DNA of 64,000 bases from Chloroflexota bacterium (GTDB lineage Bacteria > Chloroflexota > Dehalococcoidia > JABGRK01): positions 141,969 to 205,968 of the forward strand of contig JABGRK010000009.1 of assembly GCA_018648325.1 (NCBI GenBank), given 5' to 3'. Under the pieces are notes generated by a model. That model ran no database searches. It was not told where the DNA came from and worked only from the letters and a program-made list of their open reading frames with translations. Shown one piece after another: positions 7,229-53,318 of the stretch (its first letter is position 1; the number at the start of each line of letters is the position of its first letter). The position numbers and the translations under genes are program-made.

Positions 7229-10200
7229 ACACCCGTATCACATCAGATGCTGAGTTAGACTTATAATAATCATTTTCGGTAAAAACGGCGTATACAGTAC
7301 GATCGCCGGAGTCAGTAAATGTGTGATCGTAAGTATAGCTGCCATCTCCTAAAATTTCCACATTGCCGCTGATAAGCGTTACTCCATCAAACAGGGATAA
7401 GCTTTGCCCTGCCAGCGGGATGCCATCTATATCATGTAGAGTACCATTGATAGTAATCTGAGTATTTACTTTTGCCTCTTCAGGAACGTTAACAGTAAGC
7501 TGGGTCGGCATTATTATTTTGATAATGTCAGAAGAACTTGTTCCGGGATAAAGCGCCGTTCCTATAAAACTAGCTGTTACAGTATAATCGCCTACATCAG
7601 CAAACGTATGCTCCCATACAAATAGTCCGCCTGCGCCCGTCACAAACGGAACATCGGGGCTACCATCTGAGAAATGAATTACAACCGGTTGGCCCTCTAG
7701 ATCGTTGCCGAACTCCTCATACATATGAATTCTGATAGTAACAGGCTGATCATATATATCTACTCTTGGGATCAGGATAATGTCTATAAACGGCGGACCA
7801 TACACACGTACATCAGCAACCGGTTCGCTGCGAGCCTCCTTATAGAAGTTAGCATTATCAACAGCGAATTTTGCAAATACATCGTAATCGCCCGAGCGTA
7901 CAAACTTATAATCAACTTCGTAGCTTCCATCAGACTGTGTAGTTGTCTGTGTAAGAACCTCATCACCGTTCATTATGTAAACCGTTGTACCCGCAAGAGG
8001 ATCACCCCAGTCATCCAGCAAAGAGCCTTCCATTGTAAGCGTTGTAGCCTGTTTGATTTCGATTGGCAGCGCGTTCATGGTTATACTGGTGGGCATCCAC
8101 ACAGTTACATCTACGCTGCTCTCAACACCGGGCATATAAGGGTCTATACCATCAAAAGCAGCACTTATTGTACGCTGCCCAACAGACAAGTATTGGATAG
8201 GGACCTCCAAAATACCCTGATTATCTGTTAGCAGATTGCCAATATTAACTGAATTTCCATTGCGAATGGAGTAAAAATGTATTATTTCCCCACTCACAGG
8301 TTCATCAAATTCGTCTATTAAGGTAGCTTTTATGAGATTCCCTCTCTCCTCATCATTGTCAATCACTCCATTATTATTTCTATCCAGAGATACATCTACG
8401 TTTTCATCTATCTCAAGTGTGAGAGTAGGCGGACCATACACGCGTATATCCTGCTCAAACCTTGAGGAATTGAACAATCCAAAAGTCGGGTCTTCATCCG
8501 GGAGGTAACCAAATATCCCGCCACCATCGTACACCACGCTGATGGTAAACTCGCCACGCTGATCAAACGTGCGATCCAACGTAAACTTCCCAGTGGGAAG
8601 CGTTACAACCTGTCCGATCAGAAGGGGTATCGTAGTGGCTCCCGTACGATTATAATAAATTCGCACTGTGCGGCCACCCATCTGCCTGCGAAGGATATCC
8701 TCAAGGGTGCCCTCAATCGTCCACGGGGCACCCAGCTTTATCTTTTCAGGCAGATTGTCAATAGAAAGAAGTGTATCTATAGTAACCTTTGTATCAGCGA
8801 TTTCGCTCACAGGCTTATGAAATTCATTGCCACTAAAAGATGCTTCAACGCTATAGTTTCCCTGAACACCAAAAACGTAGGGTAATACAAAGTCGCCACT
8901 TGGCAAAGTGGTAGTAGAAAGAGTGCTCAGTGTTGCGCCACTGTCTATATTTACTATTTCAATATCGACCGTTACCCCTGCTATAGGATTATCGGGGTAG
9001 ATTGCATCATGCAGATTGCCTGATATAATAAAAACATCGCCCACCTTGGCATCTTCAGACATTTTCGGTACAATCTCAGATTCCGTGGTAATGATTACAT
9101 CAGGATCACTATCCGATCCCAGCAGGAACGGCTGCAGACCCACCGCTTGCGCAATAATGTGCCAGTTGCCTGCCGTCATATCAATAGGCACATCGCACTC
9201 AATGTTATAGCCATCGCTTCCAACCACTCCCAATGCTACAAAAGAGGCTGGCTTGTTCGGCATCCCGTTAACAAATTCGGGCTTATCACTATCACCTCCC
9301 TGCCAGAGCCATATCCTTACAGGCATACTAGGCACGGTGATACCCTCAACGGTCGTTACATTGCCGATCACATAAAACGGCTGGTCTTTCTCTATTATAA
9401 TTCCTTCAAGAATGGGGGTTTCGGGATCATACTCAGGATTGCTCTGGATACTCCAGATATCGGTTATCGTCTCAACGGCTATATTATTTACATCTTTAAT
9501 CGGCATACTGTTGTAAACAATCCAACCAAGTTCCTCAAAACCTACCTCGGCCAGATAAATCGTCTGAACAGCGCTTACCGTCTGCTCTTCATCAGTAGGT
9601 GCAATCCAATATCCCGATGTCAGCCTTGCCGGTATGCCCGCGCAACGGGCCAATATCACATATGCCGATGCAAAGTGGTTTGAAAGACCCTGCCTCTCCT
9701 CAAACAAAAACCAGTCGGTTGCTTCCTCCCCACTAGGAAGAGCTGCCATATTTTCCCGCGAAAACTCGTAGTTTTCCAGTAAATACGTCTCTATGGCTTT
9801 CGATTTTTCGTAGGGGGACTCATAATCCGCAGTTATCTCAAGGGACAGTGCTTTAGTACGCGATGATATATTACCAGGCAGTTGCAGATACCTGGTGTCA
9901 TCAAGAACCTCTGCCTCAATGAGCACCTCATCATCAAAGTAGTAGTGTGTGGCAGTAAACTCGTAGGCCTCGGATGTACTCTGCTGCACCCAAAAGGACC
10001 CCGCCTCCGGATACAACATTATGGGATCGGGATGCGTAAGCTGTCTGGTATGAAGCGAAGTTGGAATAAACTGAGCAGGGAACTGTAAAAGCGGTGTGAT
10101 CGTAATTGTGTCTGTTGCCATATTCGAGTAGTTGCTCACATCAGCAGCGGGAAGCGTTTCGCCACGATAACTTCGCGGCTTATCATTTATGTCTTTTGCC

Positions 10201-18515: not shown

Positions 18516-20327
18516 ATGCCTATAATTCTGGCGTTGTTCTTAACATTTACTATGTTTGCAAGTAATTGTTCAACGTCATGCAACAGCATTACAGCTGTTG
18601 AAATCACTTCCAACGCATGGGAACGGTTTAATCCTTTGCCACAAGGTAATGATCTCCGCGCTGTCTGGGGCACTTCATCATCGGATGTGTACGCTGTGGG
18701 TTGGGCAGGTACCATAGTTCATTATGACGGCAACAACTGGGATGTGATGATAAGCGGCACAACAGAAGATCTTACCGGCATCTGGGGCAGTTCATCATCC
18801 GATGTGTACGCAGTAGGTGGAGAAGGAACCATACGGCACTATGATGGCAGCACATGGTCTCCAATGAATAGTGGCACCACAGAACCACTTTCTGATATTT
18901 GGGGCACTTCATCATCCAATATCTACGCAGTGGGTTGGGACGGAACTATTCAGCACTATAACGGTAGCCGGTGGACTCCCGTAAAAATTGCCGGTACATT
19001 GATCGGTAAATATGATTTTAGCTGCACTCCTTATCTCTTAAATCCAATTGATGAGGTTTGGGGCAGCTCAGAATCTGATGTGTTCATTGCGACTTCGCAT
19101 ACCATACTGCATTTTGACGGCAACGCATGGACTGAGATGGATAGCAGTCTTACAGCTGCACTTAATGATGTTTGGGGCAGTTCTTCCACCGATGTCTTTG
19201 CCGCAGGCTATAACGGTATTATCCATTATGACGGCAACGCATGGACTTCAATGGATAGTGGCAATACAGAGACCATTTATGGAATCTGGGGTAGTTCATC
19301 ATCCGATGTCTACGCCATAGGTACAGGTAGCGCTATCCTGCACTATGACGGAATCAGATGGACTGAGGTGTATGGTGATCCCACAGATTACTTGGCTAAT
19401 ATCGCTGATATTTGGGGCAGTTCTTCCGGTGATATCTTTGCCGTAGGAAATCAAGGCACCATTATACATTATGACGGCAACAACTGGGATGTGATGATAA
19501 GTGGTGTTACACTCTACGCAATCTGGGGCAGTTCATCTACCGATGTTTTCGTTACGGGTAGCCATGGCACTATATTGCATTATGATGGCAGCACTTGGGG
19601 TGCGATGGAGAGTGGCACCACAGAACCCCTTTTTGATATTTGGGGCACTTCATCATCCAATGTCTACGCAGTGGGTGGAGACGGAACTATACGGCACTAT
19701 AATGGCAACAAGTGGAATTCAATGTACAGCGGAACAACAAAGTACCTTGCCGGAATCTGGGGCACTTCATCATCCAATGTCTACGCAGTGGGTTGGGACG
19801 AAATTATTCACTATGATGGCAGAACATGGTCTCCGATGCACGATTATACAACAACGGTTAGTTTGGACGCCATATGGGGCAGTTCCTCATCCGATATCTA
19901 CGCAGTGGGTGGGGGACGAAGTCAACATTATAATGGCAGTACCTGGTCCGAGATGGACGATATATACGGGCTTTGGGATATATGGGGCAGTTCATCATCT
20001 GATGTCTTCGCTGTGGGTATATACGGCGGGATTACATACTACGATGGAAACGAGTGGACTACAATGGATATCGTCCAACGTACGGGAGTAGGTAACACTT
20101 GCAATGCAGGTGCAAAGTCGCCAGCTTACGTAAGCGATTTCACTGCGCTCTGGGGCAGTTCATCCACTGATGTTTATGCTGTGGGGGAAAGCGGCATTAT
20201 GCATTACGATGGCATAGAATGGACCACAATAGACAATACGGTGTCGCTTAACGCAATCTGGGGCAGTTCAGCTTCTGATGTCTATGCGATAGCAAACGGT
20301 GGCACTATTCTGCATTTGTCGGAATAG
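18516..20327 (+). CDS. secreted beta-propeller-like repeat protein (~15 x ~38-aa WGSSSSDVYAVG…GTI.HYDG..W repeats; Ycf48/BNR-like)
   Basis: highly regular repeats, also near-identical at DNA level (ggggcagttcatcatccgatgt… recurring). Confidence 0.6.
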   Translation: MPIILALFLTFTMFASNCSTSCNSITAVEITSNAWERFNPLPQGNDLRAVWGTSSSDVYAVGWAGTIVHYDGNNWDVMISGTTEDLTGIWGSSSSDVYAVGGEGTIRHYDGSTWSPMNSGTTEPLSDIWGTSSSNIYAVGWDGTIQHYNGSRWTPVKIAGTLIGKYDFSCTPYLLNPIDEVWGSSESDVFIATSHTILHFDGNAWTEMDSSLTAALNDVWGSSSTDVFAAGYNGIIHYDGNAWTSMDSGNTETIYGIWGSSSSDVYAIGTGSAILHYDGIRWTEVYGDPTDYLANIADIWGSSSGDIFAVGNQGTIIHYDGNNWDVMISGVTLYAIWGSSSTDVFVTGSHGTILHYDGSTWGAMESGTTEPLFDIWGTSSSNVYAVGGDGTIRHYNGNKWNSMYSGTTKYLAGIWGTSSSNVYAVGWDEIIHYDGRTWSPMHDYTTTVSLDAIWGSSSSDIYAVGGGRSQHYNGSTWSEMDDIYGLWDIWGSSSSDVFAVGIYGGITYYDGNEWTTMDIVQRTGVGNTCNAGAKSPAYVSDFTALWGSSSTDVYAVGESGIMHYDGIEWTTIDNTVSLNAIWGSSASDVYAIANGGTILHLSE

Positions 20328-40982: not shown

Positions 40983-41145
40983 CCCTTCGGGCAGCAAAAT
41001 GGAAATAACAATCGTATTGCCTATGTACAGCATTGCACCATAAGCAAGACGCAGTAGAATACGAAAAACCCCATGCGTGCGGGATACAGGAGGTTGATAA
41101 CAACCTCAATCGACCATAAAGCTAAGCGATATTAAGGAGAAAACA

Positions 41146-44367: not shown

Positions 44368-44913
44368 TTGACAGAAACGACGAAGGTGCAGGACTTCGAG
44401 CAGGTCTTTCACCAATACAAAGGCTGGGTATACAAAACAGCCTACCTGATAACGGGCGATCATCAAAAAGCAGAGGACGTTATGCAGGAAGTCTTTATAA
44501 GCGCATATAAATTTTCAAACACGTACGACGCCAGCAAAGGCAGCTACACCAACTGGTTGCGCCGTATCACCGTAAACCAATGCACAAGGAGCAGTCGCAG
44601 AAAAATCCTACCATCATCTTCTATCGAAGAGATGCAGGATAACGGCCATGGTATATCGGACAACAGTATGCCCGTAGATGAGCAGGTGTTGCTTACAGAT
44701 CAGATCAGCCGCCTCCTAAAATCTCTTGACAACAAGTACCGTGCCGTACTCATCCTGCGATTCTATGAGGACCTGTCATATGCCGAGATCGGCGATATAC
44801 TCCATATACCGCTGGGAACGGTCAAATCGCGTATACACATGGCCATCAGCACACTGCAAAACGGCCACCAAACTACCGAGCAAAAGGAAACAACATATCA
44901 TGAACTGCGATAA
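44368..44913 (+). CDS. ECF-type RNA polymerase sigma factor (sigma-70 regions 2 and 4)
   Basis: …DVMQEVFISAYK… / …LSYAEIGDILHIPLGTVKSRIH…. Confidence 0.8.
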   Translation: MTETTKVQDFEQVFHQYKGWVYKTAYLITGDHQKAEDVMQEVFISAYKFSNTYDASKGSYTNWLRRITVNQCTRSSRRKILPSSSIEEMQDNGHGISDNSMPVDEQVLLTDQISRLLKSLDNKYRAVLILRFYEDLSYAEIGDILHIPLGTVKSRIHMAISTLQNGHQTTEQKETTYHELR

Positions 44914-45274
44914 CATGAAACAACTACTAATAAGCTACCACAATAATGAGGTCGATCCCGGCGAGCCCGATGCTATAAAGGCTCATCTGGAAACATGTCC
45001 TGATTGCCAACTCGAACACCGGTCGATCATAGACGTGCAATCGAAGTTCAAGCAGGTGCTGAGCACCACTGCCGAGTTGGTCTCGCCACCACCGGACGCA
45101 TGGCTGGCTATTCAGGGGCGTTTGGATCCTAACCGCAACCGCTTTGCCGGTCTAACAGAGCGAATAGCCAGAGCAACACGCAACTTCCTTGATACGCCTG
45201 TGTGGCAAAAAAGGCTGGTCGGCTCGCTTACAGCACTAACCACTCTGGCGTTAGTGGCAACGGTTATTCTGTAG
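44900..45274 (+). CDS. zf-HC2 anti-sigma factor (overlaps sigma gene by 14 nt)
   Basis: …AHLETCPDCQLEH…. Confidence 0.6.
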   Translation: MNCDNMKQLLISYHNNEVDPGEPDAIKAHLETCPDCQLEHRSIIDVQSKFKQVLSTTAELVSPPPDAWLAIQGRLDPNRNRFAGLTERIARATRNFLDTPVWQKRLVGSLTALTTLALVATVIL

Positions 45275-45393
45275 AGACTGGCCTACCTGCAAATCAGATC
45301 TTTGCTCGCCAACATGAGCGTCTACACCCTTCCATTACAACATTGTTTTGTTGTATACTGTGTGCAACTCTCCTGCGAGTAGAGAGGGCTAAA

Positions 45394-45798
45394 ATGTCAG
45401 AAGTTAAAATTAGGTTCTTCAGATGTATTCACGATTCCAAAGAATACGGCTCAAGTGAAGTCAATATAATTTCACGCATTTTCATGCAGATAGAGGTAGA
45501 TAGCCAGCTGAAGGGCAATCACTGTGCAGACGTAAAACATGCGCCATACGATCATACAGGGCTTATCGGCGACATTGAGGTTGGGCCCCCCATCGCGATT
45601 GCCGGCGATCTATACCTGGGCCCTATAGACCACCTGCTCTTTGGCGACGAGGCCGAAAAGTATTACAAAGGCCTGCTTGATCAAACAACCTGGGCAATCC
45701 ATATCGGCGGCAAGAAGCACAACGGACGCACGTACAACAGCACCTATCTTGCGGAATATGAGTTTACGTTCGAAGCCGCAGACCCATCAAATAACTAA
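45394..45798 (+). CDS. hypothetical protein
   Basis: ORF from MSEVKIRFF…. Confidence 0.3.
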   Translation: MSEVKIRFFRCIHDSKEYGSSEVNIISRIFMQIEVDSQLKGNHCADVKHAPYDHTGLIGDIEVGPPIAIAGDLYLGPIDHLLFGDEAEKYYKGLLDQTTWAIHIGGKKHNGRTYNSTYLAEYEFTFEAADPSNN

Positions 45799-45837
45799 CG
45801 CCCATCTACATGCGTACTCGCTCTCCGAAAAAAGCAA

Positions 45838-45930
45838 GTGCAGGATGCAATCCTGCCGGGGGCATCGGGGGTGTCCCCCGAACCTCTCTCTCCCTTCCCA
45901 CAAGAGTGGGGGATTAAGGGGGTTGATCAC
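45838..45930 (+). repeat. structured repeat R1 copy a (three consecutive hairpins)
   Basis: GCAGGATgcaATCCTGC; CGGGGGtgtCCCCCG; CCCACaagaGTGGG; ends …AAGGGGGTTGATCA. Confidence 0.55.
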
Positions 45931-46003
45931 CATTACTGACCACCAACGCTTATCTACGTGCGTATCTACTTACTGACCCTCATATAACGCAGTAGAATAC
46001 GAA

Positions 46004-46189
46004 TTACATATCGGATGCTGGTGTTCCGCCTATTACCCAGTCCTCTTTGGCAACATCTTCAAATATCACCGTGGTCGCTTCTGCTGGAGCTCCAACCGCA
46101 GCGGTTACAGCCTCGGTAATTCGCTTTGCCAGATCAACCTTCTGCTCTTTCGGCCTTCCCTCCCACATCGACACTCTTACAAACGGCAT
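46004..46189 (-). CDS. 4-oxalocrotonate tautomerase family protein
   Basis: MPFVRVSMWEGRPKEQK… (Pro1 after Met). Confidence 0.7.
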   Translation of the reverse strand: MPFVRVSMWEGRPKEQKVDLAKRITEAVTAAVGAPAEATTVIFEDVAKEDWVIGGTPASDM

Positions 46190-46287
46190 AACGTTTCCCT
46201 CCTATATGCATACTGATTTAATCGTAAGCTACATTATATCACCGCTGCCCCTCGACCGCTGTACATCGCAATAAAACCTAAAGAAAG

Positions 46288-46380
46288 TGGTGCAGGATTC
46301 TTCCTGCCGGGGGTTTGGGGGTGTCCCCCAAATCTCTTAATCCTTTCCCCCATGAGTGGGGGATCAAGGGGGTTGATCAG
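46288..46380 (+). repeat. structured repeat R1 copy b (~85% identical to copy a, compensatory stem changes)
   Basis: GCAGGAttctTCCTGC; TGGGGGtgtCCCCCA; CCCCCAtgagTGGGGG. Confidence 0.55.
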
Positions 46381-46476
46381 TTTGTGGACAAACAATGGGT
46401 AACTTACCTCAAGGCTCAGCATTGTTTCTTACTGAGTGCCACTCTGGCCTACAGCCAAACGATGGGTAATTTAAAA

Positions 46477-47304
46477 CTATGCAGACCAGAGTTCGCCCAT
46501 GTCATCACTGACAGCCTTGTGCCTGTGCTCGGTGGCAAGGAACAGTTCGCTGAAAACTTCAGGAAGTTTTTCGTCAAGAACTTTCACTCCCGCTTCGGTA
46601 ATACCGCCCTCTGTAGCTACACGCTGGACAATGGTGTCAAACGATAGCTTTCGCTTGGTAATCAGTGTTGCCGTGCCCAGCATGGTCTTGCGCACCATTT
46701 CTTCTGCCTCTTCAGGGGTGAAACTGCTGTGCTTAACAGCCTCGGCAATGAAATACTTCATCATGGCTGCCATAAAGGCGGGAGCGCAACTGGTAAGGTT
46801 GGCACCTACCTCAAATTGATCCTCGTCCAGTATTTTGAAATTGCCTATCTTGGAAAACCACATCTCCACCCGTGCCGACTCGTCCTCGGTCACCTTATCG
46901 TTGTGGTGTATCAGCGTAACGCAGTTTTTGGTGCCACATACCAGCGATGGAATAACGCGGGTTAGCTGACCATCGAATATCTTGGAAACATTCTCCATGG
47001 ACAGTCCGGCACTAATTATAACAATATGCTTATCCTGGCTGAGTTGAGGTTTCATTTCTTCGATAATACCTTTTACGTCTTCTATGCGTACGCAGATGAA
47101 TATTGTCCGGCTCTTTTCGGCAAGTTCGACATTAGAGCGAACAAGCTCCATACCCGGATTACTCGACGCAAACCCCGACAGCTTGTCTCGCGAACGTGTG
47201 CAAAGAATAACCTCTTCCTGAACCAGCGCACCATAGCGCAACAGAGAGCGCAACAGCACACTACCCATACTACCAAAACCGATAAATCCAACTTTAGCTT
47301 CCAT
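46477..47304 (-). CDS. proC: pyrroline-5-carboxylate reductase
   Basis: …VGFIGFGSMGS… Rossmann + ProC C-terminal domain. Confidence 0.85.
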   Translation of the reverse strand: MEAKVGFIGFGSMGSVLLRSLLRYGALVQEEVILCTRSRDKLSGFASSNPGMELVRSNVELAEKSRTIFICVRIEDVKGIIEEMKPQLSQDKHIVIISAGLSMENVSKIFDGQLTRVIPSLVCGTKNCVTLIHHNDKVTEDESARVEMWFSKIGNFKILDEDQFEVGANLTSCAPAFMAAMMKYFIAEAVKHSSFTPEEAEEMVRKTMLGTATLITKRKLSFDTIVQRVATEGGITEAGVKVLDEKLPEVFSELFLATEHRHKAVSDDMGELWSA

Positions 47305-47475: not shown

Positions 47476-50016
47476 CTAACTGGCGTCTATAAACGGATCA
47501 ATAGGTTCTACACTTAGCAGATTTACCGGCCCTATCATAGACGGAACATAGCCATACATGTACACCCCCTGATCCTCAATCCATCCTGTAAAACGGTCTA
47601 TTCTATATGCATTAGGTGTTATCGGATGATAGAGGGGCAGACACGGCAATTCCTCGGCTATTCGCCACTGCGTTTCGGCAATAAGAGCATCGCGCGTTGC
47701 ATTCCCTTCAGGCAACGTTTGCAATAAATTCAATTGTTCACCAATCGCCTGAGCCTCCGGGCTATCCCAGCCCACAACAGAACTGCGCTTGTCAGATCGA
47801 ACGTTCTCATAGTATCCCCACTGGCTGGCAAAATAATCGTAATCAGGTGGAATCGTTTGACCATAGATATAGGCGTCCCAATCATCATTCCCTCCCTCTA
47901 TATCAACACTGATTCTAAACGCAATTTCTACAAGTGAAAGAGCGCTAATCCCCACTTCTATACCCATGTCAGCAAGACTATCCTCAACCAGCCCTGCAAT
48001 AGCCATATCTTCAGCACTGGTATCCATACATATTAATTCGATCACCAGCGGCTCTCCGTTGTATGTGCGAATACCATCAACCCCATCATTAATGGTCGAC
48101 ATACCGGGTATGTCATCAAGCAAGTCATTGGCTGTATTAATACGATCCCATAACTGCATTCCCACATACGGCCACTCCAGAGAAAGGTCGGCATAAGACA
48201 AATGCGGAGCCACCTCAATCTGCTGCGGTATTACCGCCCAACCATTGGTTACCAAGCTCATCATTGACATCCTGTCTATTCCTACGTTAAGCGCCTGCCT
48301 GAATTTCAGAAAGTTGAACGGTGCAACGCGATGATTGAGATATAACGAGAAGGTGGTATTCTCTGCAACCTGATATATATCAAGATCTTGATCGTCGAGC
48401 AACTGAACAATTCCCCTGGGCAACATAGACGCAGTAGCATCAATATCACCGTTTCCAAGAGCTGCCTTTTGTTGTTCGTCGCTACCATAGTATATTTTTG
48501 CAAGCACATCTATTTTCGGTGCGCCTCCCCAATAATCAGCATGCGCCTCATAAATTACGTAGGTATCGGCCACCGTCTCTCTAACAGTCCATGCCCCACT
48601 GCCTATAGGATTAGCGTTTTCATATACCAAAATCTCAGTATTTGTCATACCACCCCATATCGATTCAGGCACAATAACAACATTACTCAAATAGCTCATG
48701 AACATTGCGGCAAACGTCTCCAGTTCTATTGTCAGTGTCGTATCGTCCAGCACGGTAATCGCATCAACATCAGGCCCAACAGCCGTCAAGATCATACCGG
48801 CATTCGACCATTCACTATCTATAGAAACGGTGGGATCAAGTGTTATAACGGTAGGTGTTACCGAGTAGATTAAATATGCCCCGTCCTGATCACCTGTGGT
48901 ACCTTTGTCAGGACCGTCAGTCGTTCCTCTTATCTCAACCATCTCGCCGGCAGAAAAACCGTCAGCGATGAAGTTTCCGCCTATGCTCTCAATCGTATCT
49001 GAAAACGGATCATTATCCTCCAATGAAAATGGAATTCCTGAAGTTCCTCCCTGGTTCTGCTTTATTGTCGCTGCTATATCAGCAGTCTGTCCCAACCCAA
49101 GGGCCATATATTTTAAAAGGCTGAACTTAACATCATAAGCGGTTACCTGCGTACCATTACTGAACTTGGCATCGGGGTCAAGAGTGATGGTCCACTTCAT
49201 GGTATCATCATCATAATCCCAAGACTCAGCCAGCAAGGGTAGAACCTCACCCATATTGTTGTAGTGAACCAGAGGCTCGTACATGATGCCTATATGCGCC
49301 GCATCGGCCTCTCCATCCACGGCAAGAAACGGGTTGTTAGTAGAAGGTAAGGACTGCACTCCAACGTTTAACTGATATTCCATCGGTGTAGTAAACGTAT
49401 AATCATCTGATACTGCCACAACGCCCGCCTCATCCACAGATTTCACACGGTAATGGTAGGTAGTCTCAGATGCCAACCCGGTAAGTAAAACGCTGTGATC
49501 GGTCCTGGTCATAGTATCAGGCGTCGTGGATGTACTATAACCGGTCGTGATACCATACTCTACTAGCGATGACGATGCCAGGTTGGTGCCCCATGTTATA
49601 GTCGCACTGGAGCCTGCAATATTAGAAGCCATGCAGTTTGATATTGCAAGAATTATCACACCCTTGAGCGTGGTAAACGTATAATCGACTGATGTGGCTT
49701 TATTACCATACCCGTCTGCCGATACTACGCAGTAATGATAGGTAGTCAGAGATTCAAGCCCGGTCAGTTCTACGACATGAGTGGTTGTAGGTAGAGTGAT
49801 CGGCACACTACTTGTACCGTAACCATCTGTCAGCCCATACTCCACCCATCCTATTGATGCTGTATCAGTGCCCCAGGTTATTTTCGCTCCATTCTCCATC
49901 GGCATGTATGTAACACCAGATACAACCTTACCTATCACCGGGCTACAACAAGCCAGCGGCGCAACGCAAAGAACCAGTACGCTTAAAATCGCAACTACCG
50001 TACTACGGCGTTTCAC
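47476..50016 (-). CDS. secreted protein: signal peptide, two FN3-like domains, ABC-transporter family-5 substrate-binding domain
   Basis: …VEYGLTDGYGTSS…TTYHYCVVS… x2; …LLAESWDYDDDTMKWTITLDPDAKFSNGTQVTAYDVKFS… (SBP_bac_5). Confidence 0.7.
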   Translation of the reverse strand: MKRRSTVVAILSVLVLCVAPLACCSPVIGKVVSGVTYMPMENGAKITWGTDTASIGWVEYGLTDGYGTSSVPITLPTTTHVVELTGLESLTTYHYCVVSADGYGNKATSVDYTFTTLKGVIILAISNCMASNIAGSSATITWGTNLASSSLVEYGITTGYSTSTTPDTMTRTDHSVLLTGLASETTYHYRVKSVDEAGVVAVSDDYTFTTPMEYQLNVGVQSLPSTNNPFLAVDGEADAAHIGIMYEPLVHYNNMGEVLPLLAESWDYDDDTMKWTITLDPDAKFSNGTQVTAYDVKFSLLKYMALGLGQTADIAATIKQNQGGTSGIPFSLEDNDPFSDTIESIGGNFIADGFSAGEMVEIRGTTDGPDKGTTGDQDGAYLIYSVTPTVITLDPTVSIDSEWSNAGMILTAVGPDVDAITVLDDTTLTIELETFAAMFMSYLSNVVIVPESIWGGMTNTEILVYENANPIGSGAWTVRETVADTYVIYEAHADYWGGAPKIDVLAKIYYGSDEQQKAALGNGDIDATASMLPRGIVQLLDDQDLDIYQVAENTTFSLYLNHRVAPFNFLKFRQALNVGIDRMSMMSLVTNGWAVIPQQIEVAPHLSYADLSLEWPYVGMQLWDRINTANDLLDDIPGMSTINDGVDGIRTYNGEPLVIELICMDTSAEDMAIAGLVEDSLADMGIEVGISALSLVEIAFRISVDIEGGNDDWDAYIYGQTIPPDYDYFASQWGYYENVRSDKRSSVVGWDSPEAQAIGEQLNLLQTLPEGNATRDALIAETQWRIAEELPCLPLYHPITPNAYRIDRFTGWIEDQGVYMYGYVPSMIGPVNLLSVEPIDPFIDAS

Positions 50017-50584: not shown

Positions 50585-50676
50585 GAGGTTAACGATAAAA
50601 ACCTATAACTTAAGCCACGACGTAGTTTCTTACGGCAAATGATCCCTGATCGTAGCTAGACGATGGGTAACTTGCC

Positions 50677-51300
50677 TCAAGGCTTAGCCTTGCGTAAGGC
50701 GAAAAGCGGCAGCGACAGTCCCCAGCGCATCGCCGCCAGACGAATGCCAAGCGTAACAGCAATCGACACCACCACCGATGCTGCGTATGGCGCACCAAGC
50801 GTGACCATCACAACATATGCAATTGCCCCTGCCAACGTTGCAGTGGCATAAATTTCCTTGTGCAATACAAGCGGCACCTCAGATAAAAGCACGTCTCTGA
50901 GCATGCCTCCAACCACCCCAGTCATCATTCCCATAACCACCGCCAGTACACCGGAGTCGGTCACAGCCAGCGCCTTGTCGGCACCAATCATTGTAAAGAC
51001 CGCCAAACCAACAGCGTCAAACAACAGCAACCAGCGTCGAGGAATAGTGAGTACACGCACGACAAAGAACGTGAACAATGCGGCGATGAGCACCACCAGC
51101 AGATAGACAGTGTTGGCTATCCAGAACACGTCGCCGTCCCTTAAGAGCAGGTCACGCAGAGTACCACCTCCCAGCGCTGTAACCAGCGCCAGCACCAGCA
51201 CACCAAAGATGTCTATGCGCTTGCGTCCCGCAGCCAGCGAGCCGGAAACGGCAAAAACCGCCACCCCGAAAAGGTCCAAAACGTATACTGCTTCACTCAT
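50677..51300 (-). CDS. UPF0126/TRIC-like membrane protein (YadS/YicG family)
   Basis: …VLDLFGVAVFAVSGSLAAGRKRIDIFGVLVLALVTALGGGTLRDLLL…. Confidence 0.75.
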   Translation of the reverse strand: MSEAVYVLDLFGVAVFAVSGSLAAGRKRIDIFGVLVLALVTALGGGTLRDLLLRDGDVFWIANTVYLLVVLIAALFTFFVVRVLTIPRRWLLLFDAVGLAVFTMIGADKALAVTDSGVLAVVMGMMTGVVGGMLRDVLLSEVPLVLHKEIYATATLAGAIAYVVMVTLGAPYAASVVVSIAVTLGIRLAAMRWGLSLPLFALRKAKP

Positions 51301-51448
51301 TGACGACTATGATAACATATTCGTGATGCGAATAAAAAAACCTGGTACAAAGACCCTGCCTTGTTTCTTACGGAGTTCTACCCCAACTCATAACCAACGA
51401 TGGGTAGTTTGTGTCAAGATTCAATCTTGCGATGGGTAATCCGAAAGT

Positions 51449-51514: not shown

Positions 51515-53318
51515 TTATGGCCACCACGAGATATCGCTACCATCCACATTAATAGACCACGCGTAACCAGACCCGTCTGATTTATATACAATTATTTGGC
51601 TATTAGAACCTACAGTTTCAACAAATGCCCCATCAGCAGACCAAACAGGTGTAGTAAAATCAATGGCTGGGTGGTCTGTCAAATTCGTCAAACCACTACC
51701 ATCGGCGTTTATTACGTATATATCATCGTTGCCATCGCGATCAGACACAAACGCTATCTTTGAACCATCCAGCGACCATTGGGCCTGAGTGTCAAGAGCT
51801 GCATTATTGCTCCACTGCTTGAAAAATGATGAAAAATCAGGATCCGACGGATACCCAAAAAGAGACATCTCCCAATCCCAAATAAACCAACCGCTAAACA
51901 GAGTTCGTCCTAGATAAGAGCCCTCAACGGGTGTTGGATTTACCTTGATGCCAATATCCATCAGGTTATCCGCTGTTATCCGTGCCGCCCGCTCATACGT
52001 GGCACTGTCAATATATATGCACTCATATCCCATTGGTTGAGGGCCATCGCCCAGTCCCCTGTCATACGTTCGCACAAAATCAGGTATTTCCATTACAGGG
52101 TCTTCGTCCGTACCTACATTTACAGCAGCAGGCGTTTTGGATATCCCCTCAACGTCATCAAGCAATGCGTTAGCCGCCGCAACCAGCGTGTCACGATCCA
52201 GCCCCGCATCGTTCCATGCCACATCAGGGTTAGACCACGGCAAACCGGGAGCGTATGAAACGTTCTGCGGCATGTTGGCATAACCGGCCTGCGAGAAATT
52301 GATCAGGGCCTCTCTGTCTATTGCATTACTTATCGCCTGCCTCACCTCAAGTACCTTAAACGGATCATAGCGCATATTCATAAACAACATGGCGTTGTGA
52401 TTGTAGGTCGTGATCATATCCATATTTATGCTTCCCGCGGCCAATAGCTCCGGTACATCCGTCGGAGTTTCTATCATCTGCAACGCATCTACCTCACCCG
52501 TTTTTAGCGCTGCGAGTGCAACTTCAGGTGTTTCATAGATATAGATAACCACATCACTCATTTTGGCAACACCATCGCGATAATAGGGGGTTGCCTTCAC
52601 CCAATAATGCTGATCTGCCACATATTCGTGGAAGATAAAAGGCCCGCTGCCAATAAGAAGTTCCCTTCTTGCTTGGTCTCCGGAAGGCGCCACGTAATCT
52701 GCAAATACTGTGGAATCCTCCGCACCTTCTATGTCTTGCCATATAACTTTTGGGACAATAAACACGCTCTCTAGCGTCCCCAAAAATGTCCCATACGGCT
52801 CTTCAAGCGTAAATTTGACCGTACGGCTAACCTCTTTGCTCATCCTCAACCACCTCAATGCTGTCTATCTGTGCCCACGCCTTCTTGGTTTGAGCAAATA
52901 GGTCCTCTCCATGATGTCTTTTGCCCACCTCAAAGCTGTACTTTACATCCTCAGCGGTAACCGGATTGCCATCACTCCAGGCGGCATCAGGGTCTATGTA
53001 AAAGGTATACTCAAGCTTGTCCTCAGAAACATCCCAGCTCGCTGCAAGACAGGGTTCCAATGTGCCATCCTCCAGTTGTCGCACCAGCGGTTCCCATATA
53101 AGCTGAGCCAGACTGGCCTGAATTAGTTTTTCTGACTTCATCGGCACCAGCGTGTTGGGACTACTTGTCATGCCGATGTTCAGTTTTACCGACTCCGGCT
53201 CATCAACAACTACCTCCGGGCTACTACAAGCCAGTGGCGCAAGGCAAAGCATCAGCACACTTAAAATCGCAACCAGAATACTAAAGTGTTTCATGATAAG
53301 CTCCTTCTTACCTCTCAC
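51515..53318 (-). pseudogene. family-5 substrate-binding protein with C-terminal TolB-like repeats, split by frameshift at ~52827-52858
   Basis: N-part (…LAASWDVSEDKLEYTFYIDPDAAWSDGNPVTAEDVKYSF…) and C-part in different frames; signal peptide near-identical to 47476..50016 product. Confidence 0.6.

What the first reader, a model, noticed from the sequence alone, without database searches (positions are those of the whole stretch)
45795..46400. Two copies of a ~93-nt triple-hairpin repeat (R1) flank a 4-OT tautomerase gene; stems show compensatory changes
R1a (45838-45930) and R1b (46288-46380) are ~85% identical direct repeats. Each contains three consecutive hairpins and ends in AAGGGGGTTGATCA. 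Hairpin 1 is GCAGGAT.gca.ATCCTGC versus GCAGGA.ttct.TCCTGC. Hairpin 2 is CGGGGG.tgt.CCCCCG versus TGGGGG.tgt.CCCCCA, a C:G to T:A covariation. Hairpin 3 is CCCAC.aaga.GTGGG versus CCCCCA.tgag.TGGGGG. Conservation of pairing rather than sequence argues for a functional structure: a REP/MITE-like element, a recombination site or a small RNA. The intervening single gene (tautomerase, opposite strand) looks cassette-like, and R3 elements abut both copies.
Basis: seen in the sequence. Interest (0 to 1): 0.5.

Follow-up and report, generated by a model that had tools for sequence, protein, structure and literature searches.

The report
Dehalococcoidia hairpin-rich dispersed repeat (MITE family)
The two ~93-nt triple-hairpin repeats are real, but they are worn-down copies of a very abundant, apparently undescribed family of small mobile-element-like repeats that fills intergenic spaces in Dehalococcoidia genomes; they are not a gene cassette boundary or a dedicated small RNA.

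Summary
R1a (45838-45930) and R1b (46288-46380) are 84.6% identical direct repeats with the three hairpins as described. They are the only full copies in the 64-kb window.

They belong to a large dispersed family. A covariance model found 174 copies in 634 kb of those loci, up to 5 per 8 kb.

Full-length members enclose the same three-hairpin core in 13-16-bp terminal inverted repeats of at least three sequence types. Type B (GGAACCTCTGAATAAG) is flanked by 4-bp YTAR direct duplications. It is 15/16 identical to the inverted repeat of a genuine IS5-family insertion sequence. So the family behaves as MITEs of the IS5 type.

The window's copies lack the outer arms. A related contig (L149) carries three similar armless copies.

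Stem covariation is real, but G·U and A·C mismatches are equal (78 vs 81), orientation bias is modest (47:21) and no Rfam family matches. A strand-specific RNA is therefore not supported. attC and REP signatures are absent.

No autonomous transposase was found, and the strong conservation of the core remains unexplained.

The parts
45838..45930 (+). R1a: armless ('core-only') copy of the family, given on the G-rich strand. Hairpin 1 is at 45840-45856, hairpin 2 at 45865-45881, a CT-rich spacer at 45882-45896, hairpin 3 at 45897-45910 (weakened by a C-to-A change) and the tail AAGGGGGTTGATCA at 45916-45929.
   Evidence: The CM hit spans 45816-45931 at 74.5 bits, E 1.8e-19.
46288..46380 (+). R1b: the better-preserved armless copy. 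Hairpin 1 is at 46292-46307, hairpin 2 at 46314-46332, hairpin 3 at 46347-46362 and the tail at 46366-46379.
   Evidence: The CM hit spans 46268-46381 at 103.7 bits, E 5.9e-28.
45804..45816 (+). Left copy of a 13-nt direct repeat, ATCTACATGCGTA, that brackets R1a. It may be the footprint of a local insertion or duplication.
   Evidence: Exact matches occur only here and at 45952-45964 in the 64-kb window. Long flanking direct repeats are not a family feature.
45952..45964 (+). Right copy of the same 13-nt direct repeat, ATCTACGTGCGTA.
46004..46189 (-). The 4-oxalocrotonate tautomerase family gene (61 aa) lying between the two copies. It is a neighbour of the repeats and not part of the repeat family.
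   Evidence: Pfam Tautomerase PF01361, E 2.4e-18. The gene is absent from the proC locus of the nearest relatives L129, L130 and L132.
45825..45856 (-). On the minus strand, hairpin 1 of R1a followed by ACTTGCTTTTTT. This is a terminator-like site placed to end the tautomerase transcript. The function is inferred.
   Evidence: The terminator scan reports a stem at 45856-45840 with 7 pairs and tail ACTTGCTTTT. The minus-strand fold has z = -3.2.
41060..41098 (+). A possible degenerate [hairpin 3 + tail] module, CCCCATGCGTGCGGGATACAGGAGGTTGATAAC. The evidence is weak.
   Evidence: CM 12.7 bits, E 0.16; sequence read.

Best explanation
R1a and R1b are two decayed, armless copies of a mosaic interspersed repeat family of about 95-125 bp that is abundant in Dehalococcoidia genomes. 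The family has a shared interior: AAGAGGTG, hairpin 1, CGGGGGTCTG, hairpin 2 (G5-TGT-C5), an A/T- or C/T-rich spacer, hairpin 3 (C5-AAGAYT-G5), then AYAGGGGGTTGA. Full-length members enclose this interior in 13-16-bp terminal inverted repeats.

Shown: the copies are dispersed, intergenic and non-coding, and they occur in both orientations. At least three arm types exist: A GAGACyGCTGAAAAAG, B GGAACCTCTGAATAAG and D CAGGCTGTCCGAAAAG. Type B is flanked by 4-bp YTAR direct duplications. Its arm is nearly identical to the inverted repeat of a genuine IS5-family insertion sequence that also duplicates TTAA.

Inferred: full-length copies are MITEs moved in trans by an IS5-family DDE transposase, by cut-and-paste into YTAR sites. 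The window's two copies have lost the arms, or descend from an armless lineage, and can no longer be moved in that way. They simply occupy two consecutive intergenic spacers at a rearranged junction that also gained the tautomerase gene.

The GC-rich palindromes are conserved as symmetric, DNA-level features. When transcribed in either direction they would form stable hairpins. In some copies these act as intrinsic terminators or 3'-end protectors, for example R1a hairpin 1 plus its T-run for the tautomerase transcript (inferred).
For: Family size and spread:
These include 24 separate 8-kb blocks spread over the 1.77-Mb scaffold of PPR_0295.
- The CM found 174 hits in 634 kb, up to 5 per 8 kb. 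nhmmer found 196 hits.
- The window's own variant is dispersed too: L149 has 3 copies in 3.5 kb, 78-86% identical to R1a/R1b, with hairpin 1 identical to R1a's.

Arms:
- Self-complementary outer arms of three sequence types.

Target-site duplications:
- Type B: 19/26 copies carry an identical 4-mer on both sides (CTAA x8, TTAA x8, TTAG x3, ATAG x1).
- Among non-palindromic 4-mers, 12 are direct and 2 inverted; the 3-mer permutation p is 0.001.
- Type A: 6/15 copies have matching variable 3-mers, p = 0.00025.
- Adjacent copies share one TTAA (L043).

Link to IS5:
- The IS5 target is YTAR (PMC5009759).
- IS5-like ends are GGAAGGTGCGAATAAG.
- A 1,198-bp IS on Achromobacter plasmid pA81 has IRL GGAACCTCTGAACAAG and IRR GGAAGGTCTGAACAAG, a DDE_Tnp_1 transposase and TTAA on both sides. 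The type B arm is 15/16 identical to that IRL.

Not one RNA strand:
- G·U 78 vs A·C 81 across 186 distinct copies.
- Orientation 47 sense: 21 antisense, the same with or without arms.
- No Rfam match.

Lineage-specific at this locus:
- There are no copies and no tautomerase gene at the proC locus of relatives L129-L132.
- A-type copies at orthologous sites evolve like their flanks or faster (L057/L025: 91% vs 96%).
Against: - No autonomous IS5-type transposase gene with these arms was found in 1.06 Mb of fetched DNA.
- No clean filled-versus-empty orthologous site was recovered; the sample was selected for filled sites.
- Only the B arm could be tied to a known IS. The A and D arms gave only chance hits.
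- The interior is far better conserved than the arms across subfamilies, the reverse of what a plain MITE shows.
- Armless copies are dispersed (L149) although they lack what a DDE transposase would need.
- In two orthologous armless pairs the interior is 93-97% identical against about 82% for the coding flanks. That suggests constraint or gene conversion.
- R1a and R1b themselves show no arms and no YTAR duplication. R1a instead has an atypical 13-nt flanking direct repeat.
Confidence: 0.72

Rival explanations
1. The three-hairpin core is itself a functional module kept by selection. It could be a portable transcription terminator or insulator, an mRNA 3'-end stabiliser, or a binding array for a host protein. 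It has been carried around by different IS5-type arm pairs and retained at many intergenic sites. On this view the window copies are working terminators or stabilisers for proC and the tautomerase gene.
For: - The interior is conserved across arm types A, B and D and in armless copies.
- Hairpin 1 is swapped for unrelated palindromes at orthologous sites (L020/L089, L103/L119).
- Two orthologous armless pairs keep the interior at 93-97% against about 82% for the flanks.
- Armless copies lie 6-23 nt after an upstream stop and 8-60 nt before the next start, mostly in sense.
- Hairpin 2 is followed by a U-tract in a subset of copies, and left-half elements in soil contigs end in CTCTTCCTTTTTT.
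- R1a's minus strand is picked up by the terminator scan.
Against: - Only 11 of 99 copies in the group that did not match the A, B or D arm patterns have at least 6 T in the 11 nt after hairpin 2, and none of the A, B or D copies do.
- About 30% of copies between co-directional genes are antisense.
- The conserved single-stranded G5 tracts and hairpin 3 are not needed for a terminator.
- The conservation estimates are inflated because the loci were found with an exact pattern covering 22 nt of the interior.
- Gene conversion among hundreds of copies, and template-switch correction of quasi-palindromes, can mimic selection. This point rests on general knowledge and was not tested here.
Confidence: 0.15
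2. The armless copies, including R1a and R1b, are REP/BIME-like or PATE-like elements moved as single-stranded DNA by an IS200/IS605-type (RAYT/TnpA Y1) transposase. That enzyme recognises subterminal hairpins and needs neither terminal inverted repeats nor target duplications.
For: - Armless copies have a hairpin near each end (hairpin 1 about 10 nt from the 5' boundary, hairpin 3 about 12-16 nt from the 3' boundary).
- Their boundaries are sharp and conserved (AAGnGGTG ... GGGGGTTGAT).
- They have no arms and no consistent duplication, yet they are dispersed.
Against: - There is no GTAG or CGTC tag in or beside R1a or R1b.
- The unit is about 93 nt with three hairpins, not a 20-40-bp palindrome.
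- Orientation shows no relation to local GC skew (77 vs 75), whereas this class inserts strand-specifically.
- The same interior is clearly mobilised with DDE-type arms and duplications in subfamilies A and B.
- No Y1 transposase gene was looked for or seen.
Confidence: 0.07
3. R1 is a strand-specific structured non-coding or cis-regulatory RNA.
For: - Stems are paired in 92-95% of cells, with compensatory changes at the base of hairpin 2.
- There is a modest sense-orientation bias, 47:21.
Against: - G·U and A·C mismatches are equal (78 vs 81), and the hairpins disagree on strand: H1 27:11, H2 25:43.
- The RNAalifold covariation term is only -0.23.
- No Rfam family matches even at E up to 1-10.
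- There are hundreds of copies per clade beside unrelated genes, and both window copies are antisense to the flanking minus-strand genes.
- Arms and duplications are present in full-length members.
Confidence: 0.04
4. R1a and R1b are recombination sites (integron attC-like) that delimit a mobile tautomerase gene cassette.
For: - Two direct copies bracket a single short gene.
- That gene is absent from the same locus in relatives.
Against: - There is no RYYYAAC or GTTRRRY core site on either strand.
- The fold is three separate hairpins and not one long imperfect hairpin.
- No integrase or recombinase domain appears among the genes within about 10 kb either side.
- Family copies lie between unrelated genes in both orientations all over the genomes.
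Confidence: 0.02

Closest known systems
IS5-family-derived MITEs (non-autonomous elements with IS5-type inverted repeats and a YTAR target duplication)
   Same: - About 100-125 bp, non-coding, intergenic and high copy.
- 13-16-bp terminal inverted repeats.
- Subfamily B has a 4-bp YTAR/TTAA duplication. Its arm is 15/16 identical to the IRL of an IS5-family IS (pA81) and 12/16 to the IS5/ISKpn26 ends.
   Different: - The same interior is shared by at least three different arm types, and by armless copies that are still dispersed.
- The interior is more conserved than the arms.
- No autonomous partner has been found.
- The window's copies lack arms and duplications.
Mosaic palindromic intergenic repeats: E. 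coli BIMEs (REP/PU clusters), pneumococcal BOX elements, rhizobial RIMEs
   Same: - A modular build from short GC-rich palindromes and linkers, with optional or duplicated modules. Hairpin 1 is absent in subfamily B. [Hairpin 3 + tail] is duplicated in L046, L094 and L016. Left-half elements occur in soil contigs.
- Intergenic, in both orientations, often at the 3' ends of genes.
   Different: - No GTAG/CGTC REP tag.
- The palindromes are G5/C5 hairpins with no sequence similarity to those families.
- Many members have true terminal inverted repeats and target duplications.
- The resemblance to BOX and RIME rests on my own knowledge, not on a test run here.
Neisseria Correia elements / enterobacterial ERIC (MITEs that fold into hairpins in mRNA and alter the expression of neighbouring genes)
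   Same: Small repeats bounded by inverted repeats that are co-transcribed with neighbouring genes and form strong secondary structures. General description in PMC3733652.
   Different: - In those elements the hairpin is formed by the terminal repeats themselves. Here three internal hairpins are conserved independently of the arms.
- No expression data exist for this family.
Integron attC sites
   Same: An imperfect-palindrome-containing repeat found downstream of a single short gene, in direct orientation.
   Different: - No R''/R' core sites and no single long hairpin with extrahelical bases.
- No integrase nearby.
- Copies are not arranged in arrays of cassettes.

Membership tests
MITE (IS5-family type) | Short (under about 300 bp), no coding capacity | tested here: met
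   Units are 93-125 bp. The spacer varies in length by indels among copies. The only ORFs across R1a and R1b are on the minus strand, and read codon by codon they differ by 8 non-synonymous and 2 synonymous changes followed by a frameshift.
MITE (IS5-family type) | Terminal inverted repeats | tested here: met
   Met for the family: arms A, B and D are 13-16 bp and self-complementary. NOT met for the window copies R1a and R1b, whose flanks show no complementary arms.
MITE (IS5-family type) | Target-site duplication of the length and sequence typical of the transposase family (IS5: 4-bp YTAR) | tested here: met
   Subfamily B: 19/26 copies have an identical flanking 4-mer of YTAR type, 12 direct vs 2 inverted among non-palindromic 4-mers, p = 0.001. 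The IS5 YTAR target is from PMC5009759. Subfamily A: 6/15 matching 3-mers (p = 0.00025). R1a and R1b have no YTAR duplication.
MITE (IS5-family type) | Arms match those of an autonomous IS of the family | tested here: met
   The B arm GGAACCTCTGAATAAG is 15/16 identical to GGAACCTCTGAACAAG, the IRL of a 1,198-bp IS with a DDE_Tnp_1 transposase and a TTAA duplication on Achromobacter pA81. The A and D arms have no such match.
MITE (IS5-family type) | A cognate autonomous element in the same genomes | tested here: not met
   tblastn with the pA81 transposase against 1.06 Mb of fetched loci and the window gave no hit. No orphan arm pair enclosing a gene was found. Only fragments of the MAGs were available, so absence is weak evidence.
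MITE (IS5-family type) | Insertion polymorphism (filled vs empty sites) | tested here: inconclusive
   Orthologous sites in different species are mostly filled in both, and only tandem copy number differs. Relatives at 62-68% ProC identity lack copies at the proC locus, but they are too diverged for a precise empty site.
REP / BIME (RAYT-associated) | A 20-40-bp palindrome tagged by GTAG or CGTC at one end (PMC3733652) | tested here: not met
   No GTAG, CTAC, CGTC or GACG in R1a or R1b plus or minus 15 nt. The unit is about 93 nt with three hairpins.
REP / BIME (RAYT-associated) | Association with a RAYT (IS200/IS605 Y1 transposase) gene | not tested
   Whole genomes were not available. Orientation is unrelated to GC skew (77:75), which argues against strand-specific ssDNA insertion.
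Integron attC site | R'' (RYYYAAC) and R' (GTTRRRY) core sites at the two ends | tested here: not met
   Neither motif occurs on either strand of R1a or R1b plus or minus 15 nt.
Integron attC site | A single long imperfect hairpin, an adjacent integron integrase, and cassette arrays | tested here: not met
   The folds give three separate hairpins. No recombinase domain appears among the genes within about 10 kb either side. Family copies are scattered genome-wide.
Any described structured RNA family (Rfam 15) | A covariance-model match | tested here: not met
   No hit at gathering score in the window. No relevant hit at E up to 1-10 in the R1 region, in 8 loci with intact copies, or in 8 metagenome loci.
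Rho-independent terminator | A GC-rich hairpin immediately followed by a U-tract on the transcribed strand | tested here: inconclusive
   R1a's minus strand (hairpin 1 + ACTTGCTTTT) passes the scan, but R1b does not. Family-wide, at least 6 T in the 11 nt after hairpin 2 occurs in 11/99 copies that did not match the A, B or D arm patterns and in 0 A/B/D copies.

The most novel reading that the evidence does not exclude
The roughly 70-nt G5/C5 three-hairpin interior is not passive cargo. It is a selected, portable module that has been captured repeatedly by different IS5-type arm pairs and then domesticated at orthologous intergenic sites across Dehalococcoidia. It could be a bidirectional terminator or insulator, or an array of six TGGGGG(A/T) sites for an unknown DNA- or RNA-binding protein. 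In that case MITEs would be distributing a regulatory part through streamlined genomes.
Probability: 0.17. Interest if true: 0.6.

Novelty: new member of a known kind. Interest (0 to 1): 0.36.

Why it matters
Dehalococcoidia are mostly uncultured, have small and tightly packed genomes, and are usually thought to be poor in repeats. This is a repeat family that can fill nearly every intergenic spacer in some of these genomes: up to 5 copies per 8 kb, and at least 24 separate blocks over one 1.77-Mb scaffold.

- **Annotation and assembly:** spurious small ORFs are called across the copies, for example a 62-aa call over R1b, and contigs break at repeats.
- **Strain typing:** the copies could serve as markers.
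- **Genome rearrangement:** the window's pair sits at an inverted and expanded junction.
- **Mobile-element biology:** one conserved hairpin interior combined with three different IS5-type end pairs, plus armless but dispersed copies, is unusual and raises a testable question about what maintains the interior.

For the finding itself, the result is mainly a clarification. It is not a cassette boundary and not a dedicated small RNA.

Tried and rejected
- **Rfam:** four searches covering the window, the R1 region, and intact Dehalococcoidia and metagenome copies found nothing relevant.
- **tRNA/tmRNA scan:** none.
- **Coding hypothesis:** the minus-strand ORFs across both copies share a frame for about 25 codons. 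They differ by 8 non-synonymous and 2 synonymous changes and then shift frame, so I rejected it.
- **attC and REP tags:** absent.
- **Long target duplications:** a 13-mer like the one around R1a is not a family feature.
- **Autonomous partner:**
  - Orphan arms in the loci turned out to be 3' arms read on the other strand, or other elements such as the L030 nested insertion.
  - tblastn with an IS5-family transposase found nothing.
- **A and D arms against plasmid IS ends:** only chance hits inside genes or in unannotated DNA with no IS nearby.
- **R1a against plasmids:** no meaningful hit.
- **Viral contigs:** no copy.
- **Filled versus empty sites among fetched loci:** none clean.
- **Strand of folding from G·U vs A·C:** no asymmetry.
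- **Replication-strand bias from GC skew:** none.
- **Homology between the R1a and R1b flanks beyond the core:** too weak to call.
- **Resemblance to the 16S 3' end:** AAGAGGTG and AGGGGGTTGATC resemble the complement of the 16S 3' end. I noted this as an idea only and did not pursue it.
- **Literature:** no paper links MITEs or this motif with Dehalococcoidia. Chloroflexi or Dehalococcoides appear in REP papers only for GTAG repeats or as a listed genome.
Full report
**1.

R1a (45838-45930) and R1b (46288-46380) are direct repeats, 84.6% identical (77/91) with two single-base indels. Both end in AAGGGGGTTGATCA, which occurs nowhere else in the window. A covariance model built later from the family, run over the whole window with filters off, finds only these two full copies, at 103.7 and 74.5 bits. 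It also finds a doubtful partial module near 41060-41098. The window has no tRNA and no Rfam hit.

The gene context is as follows:
- an ECF sigma factor (44368-44913, +);
- a zf-HC2 anti-sigma factor (+);
- a 134-aa ORF ending at 45798 (+);
- R1a;
- a 61-aa 4-OT family tautomerase gene (46004-46189, -);
- R1b;
- proC (46477-47304, -).

One claim is only partly right, namely 'R3 elements abut both copies'. The 13-mer ATCTACRTGCGTA occurs without mismatch only at 45804-45816 and 45952-45964. It brackets R1a and does not adjoin R1b.

**2. R1 is a large dispersed family, not a local pair.**

The same locus, with both copies unchanged, occurs in nine fetched metagenome and MAG contigs. Those contigs therefore say nothing about divergence.

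I scanned one genome per species with a two-block pattern, GGGGTGTCCCC-N28-50-GGGGGTTGATC. Apart from one chance match in a Gemmatimonadales coding region (L080), all are true copies. They come from about 16 MAGs labelled Dehalococcoidia, Dehalococcoidales, Chloroflexi/Chloroflexota or 'Chloroflexia', plus one labelled Planctomycetota. They include 24 separate 8-kb blocks scattered from 80 kb to 1.72 Mb along the 1.77-Mb PPR_0295 scaffold.

The covariance model finds 174 copies in 634 kb of those loci, up to five per 8 kb in MAG-BB-17 (L058, L070). nhmmer finds 196. No copy occurs in the viral collection, and nothing similar occurs in plasmids.

The window's own variant has a long CT-rich spacer between hairpins 2 and 3, and it is dispersed too. 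A 3.5-kb metagenome contig with the same GC content (L149) carries three copies 78-86% identical to R1a/R1b. One of them has hairpin 1 identical to R1a's. Two of them bracket a short minus-strand ORF, just as in the window. So 'two copies flanking one small gene' is what insertions in consecutive intergenic spacers look like.

**3. Anatomy of the family.**

On the G-rich strand the shared interior reads, in order:
- AAGAGGTG;
- hairpin 1, commonly GCAGGA-tact-TCCTGC;
- CGGGGGTCTG;
- hairpin 2, (C/T)TGGGGG-TGT-CCCCCA(G/A);
- a variable spacer of 10-17 nt;
- hairpin 3, (T)CCCCC-AAGAYT/ATGAKT-GGGGG(A);
- (A/T)AYAGGGGGTTGA(TC/TT/AA).

Hairpin 1 is the most telling part. Different lineages replace it with unrelated palindromes, such as GCAGGAGA...TCTCCTGC, GTCCTTCCGG...CCGGAAGGAC, GCCCTTCC..GGAAGGGC and GGGGCAAAG..CTTTGCC. 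Subfamily B lacks it altogether.

Some copies duplicate the [hairpin 3 + tail] module (L046, L094, L016). Some soil contigs carry only the left half, followed by a T-run (L135, L140, L144, L148). The family is therefore a mosaic of modules.

Around this interior, full-length copies carry perfectly self-complementary outer arms of at least three sequence types:
- A: GAGACyGCTGAAAAAG ... CTATTTCAGCAgTCTC;
- B: GGAACCTCTGAATAAG ... GATCAGAGGTTCC;
- D: CAGGCTGTCCGAAAAG ... TTTTCrGACAGCCTG.

Roughly half of the copies have no arm of 9 bp or more under a strict test. That group includes R1a, R1b and the L149 copies.

**4. The arms are transposon ends.**

I anchored on the ends of the arms to read the flanks. 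In subfamily B, 19 of 26 copies have the same 4-mer on both sides: CTAA x8, TTAA x8, TTAG x3 and a unique ATAG/ATAG. One further copy has TAT/TAT. Among non-palindromic 4-mers, 12 are direct and 2 inverted, so these are duplications and not extensions of the inverted repeat (3-mer permutation p = 0.001). Adjacent copies in L043 share a single TTAA. Subfamily A shows variable 3-bp direct repeats in 6 of 15 copies (p = 0.00025).

YTAR is the documented IS5 target duplication (PMC5009759). IS5-like ends read from an E. coli genome are GGAAGGTGCGAATAAG and GGAAGGTGCGAACAAG, a 12/16 match to the B arm.

A BLAST of the B end against plasmids hit, at 20/21, the left end of a 1,198-bp element on Achromobacter plasmid pA81. 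That element has IRL GGAACCTCTGAACAAG, IRR GGAAGGTCTGAACAAG, a 322-aa DDE_Tnp_1/DUF772 'IS5 family transposase', and TTAA on both sides. The B arm is 15/16 identical to that IRL.

Subfamily B, and by homology of the arms (11/16) probably A and D, therefore has the hallmarks of MITEs of the IS5 family.

**5. What I could not show.**
- No IS5-type transposase gene or arm-bounded gene occurs in the 1.06 Mb fetched.
- The A and D arms found no IS partner in plasmids.
- No clean empty site was recovered among orthologous loci. Those were all selected for being filled and differ only in tandem copy number.

**6. RNA or DNA?**

Stems are paired in 92-95% of cells. The three outer pairs of hairpin 2 covary, with 12, 3 and 4 double changes among 66 copies. 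RNAalifold independently recovers hairpins 2 and 3, but its covariation term is only -0.23.

The decisive test is the kind of mismatch. Over 186 distinct copies, G·U cells number 78; these are tolerated only if the G-rich strand folds. A·C cells number 81; these would be wobbles on the other strand. The hairpins also disagree on strand: H1 27:11, H2 25:43, H3 26:27.

Between co-directional genes the G-rich strand is sense in 47 cases and antisense in 21. The ratio is the same for copies with arms (20:9) and without (27:12). Orientation is unrelated to local GC skew (77:75). No Rfam family matches intact copies.

So the palindromes are conserved symmetrically, as expected for DNA-level features or for hairpins useful in either orientation. 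They are not conserved as one strand-specific RNA.

Terminator-like configurations exist but are a minority:
- At least 6 T in the 11 nt after hairpin 2 occurs in 11 of 99 copies that did not match the A, B or D arm patterns, and in no A, B or D copy.
- On the C-rich strand, hairpin 1 is followed by CACCTCTTTTTC.
- In the window, the minus strand of R1a (hairpin 1 + ACTTGCTTTTTT) passes the terminator scan and is placed to end the tautomerase transcript. R1b does not pass.

**7. The window's locus.**

The nearest non-identical ProC proteins are only 62-68% identical. In their contigs (L129, L132), proC is followed after 36-55 nt by a co-directional ECF sigma/anti-sigma pair. There is no tautomerase gene, and no family copy in about 38 kb.

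In the window that sigma pair is inverted, and R1b, the tautomerase gene, R1a and a 134-aa ORF lie at the junction. R1a and R1b share the derived CT-rich spacer and are each other's closest relatives within the window. They have no arms and no YTAR duplication. R1a alone is bracketed by a 13-nt direct repeat, which is not a family trait.

No attC core sites, REP tags or nearby recombinase exist. I therefore read the pair as two armless, immobile family copies in consecutive spacers of a lineage-specific, rearranged region. I do not read them as cassette boundaries.

**8. What remains odd.**

The interior is much better conserved than the arms: the arms differ by 30-40% between subfamilies, whereas the interior is nearly constant. 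Armless copies are nevertheless dispersed. In two orthologous armless pairs the hairpin 2-to-tail segment is 93-97% identical against about 82% for the coding flanks. A-type copies, by contrast, evolve like their flanks or faster. This comparison has n = 2, and the exact search pattern inflates the estimate.

Possible causes are gene conversion among many copies, template-switch 'correction' of quasi-palindromes (general knowledge, untested here), or real selection on the interior as a terminator, insulator or protein-binding array. I cannot separate these with the tools at hand.

**9. Verdict.**

This is an ordinary kind of object, a MITE-like interspersed repeat, but an apparently undescribed and unusually abundant family in a clade known for compact genomes. 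My literature searches found no description of it. Its conserved hairpin interior is combined with several IS5-type end pairs. That R1 is a member of a dispersed family is near-certain. That the family is mobilised as IS5-type MITEs is well supported for subfamily B and inferred for the rest. Any host function of the core is speculative.

Noticed in passing
window 45804-45816 and 45952-45964: A 13-nt direct repeat, ATCTACRTGCGTA (12/13 identical between the two copies), brackets a 135-nt segment containing R1a. These are the only exact occurrences in 64 kb. It looks like the footprint of a local insertion or duplication, and it is not typical of the family.
   Followed up: partly
window 46389-46424, 46456-46473, 50660-50692, 51397-51440; L130 ~7270-7300: A recurring motif, CAAACrATGGGTAAyTTrCCTCAAGG (core CGATGGGTAA / GGGTAACTTRCCTCAAGG), lies 80-200 nt upstream of minus-strand gene starts. 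A related sequence lies upstream of a methyltransferase gene in a distant relative. It may be a promoter or operator motif.
   Followed up: partly
window 44368-47304 compared with L129 6001-8005 and L132 4389-6374: In relatives, proC is followed directly by a co-directional ECF sigma/anti-sigma pair. In the window that pair is inverted, and a tautomerase gene, a 134-aa ORF and the two R1 copies lie at the junction. In L130 the sigma gene region appears degraded.
   Followed up: partly
window 46234-46242 (minus strand): An extended -10-like sequence, TGATATAAT, lies 45 nt upstream of the tautomerase start codon, between R1b and the gene. This suggests the gene has its own promoter.
   Followed up: no
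window ~41060-41098: A weak partial match to the [hairpin 3 + tail] module, CCCCATGCGTGCGGGATACAGGAGGTTGATAAC (12.7 bits, E 0.16), lies in the spacer before the amidohydrolase gene.
   Followed up: partly
L030 3094-3585: An R1 copy is split by a nested insertion of about 470 nt just after GAGACCGCTGAAAAAGAGGTGC. The insert contains GTCATTGCGAGC...CTCGCAATGAC inverted repeats, so it is apparently another repeat family. Related 5' ends occur in L099, L021 and L116.
   Followed up: no
L135, L140, L144, L148 (and identical contigs L143, L145, L146, L150, L152, L154): Soil metagenome contigs carry only the left half of the element (hairpin 1, G5, hairpin 2) followed by CTCTTCCTTTTTT. Some have their own flanking inverted repeat (CACTAGTGCA/TGCACTAGT). 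The taxon is unknown.
   Followed up: no
L034 6778-6890: A well-preserved family copy lies on a 5.97-Mb scaffold of a MAG labelled Planctomycetota. This reflects either horizontal transfer or a binning or assembly error.
   Followed up: no
window 18516-20327: A 603-aa ORF is built from many tandem coding repeats with a 117-nt period (WGSSSSDVYAVG...HYDG-type units).
   Followed up: no
window 49932-50015 and 53210-53293: An 84-nt repeat (81% identical) lies at the 5' ends of two minus-strand genes of the solute-binding-protein region. It is probably a pair of paralogous signal-peptide-coding segments.
   Followed up: no
window 46234-46422 (minus strand): Public gene calls (the JGI contig and L007) include a 62-aa ORF lying across R1b. 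It is most likely a spurious call caused by the repeat.
   Followed up: partly
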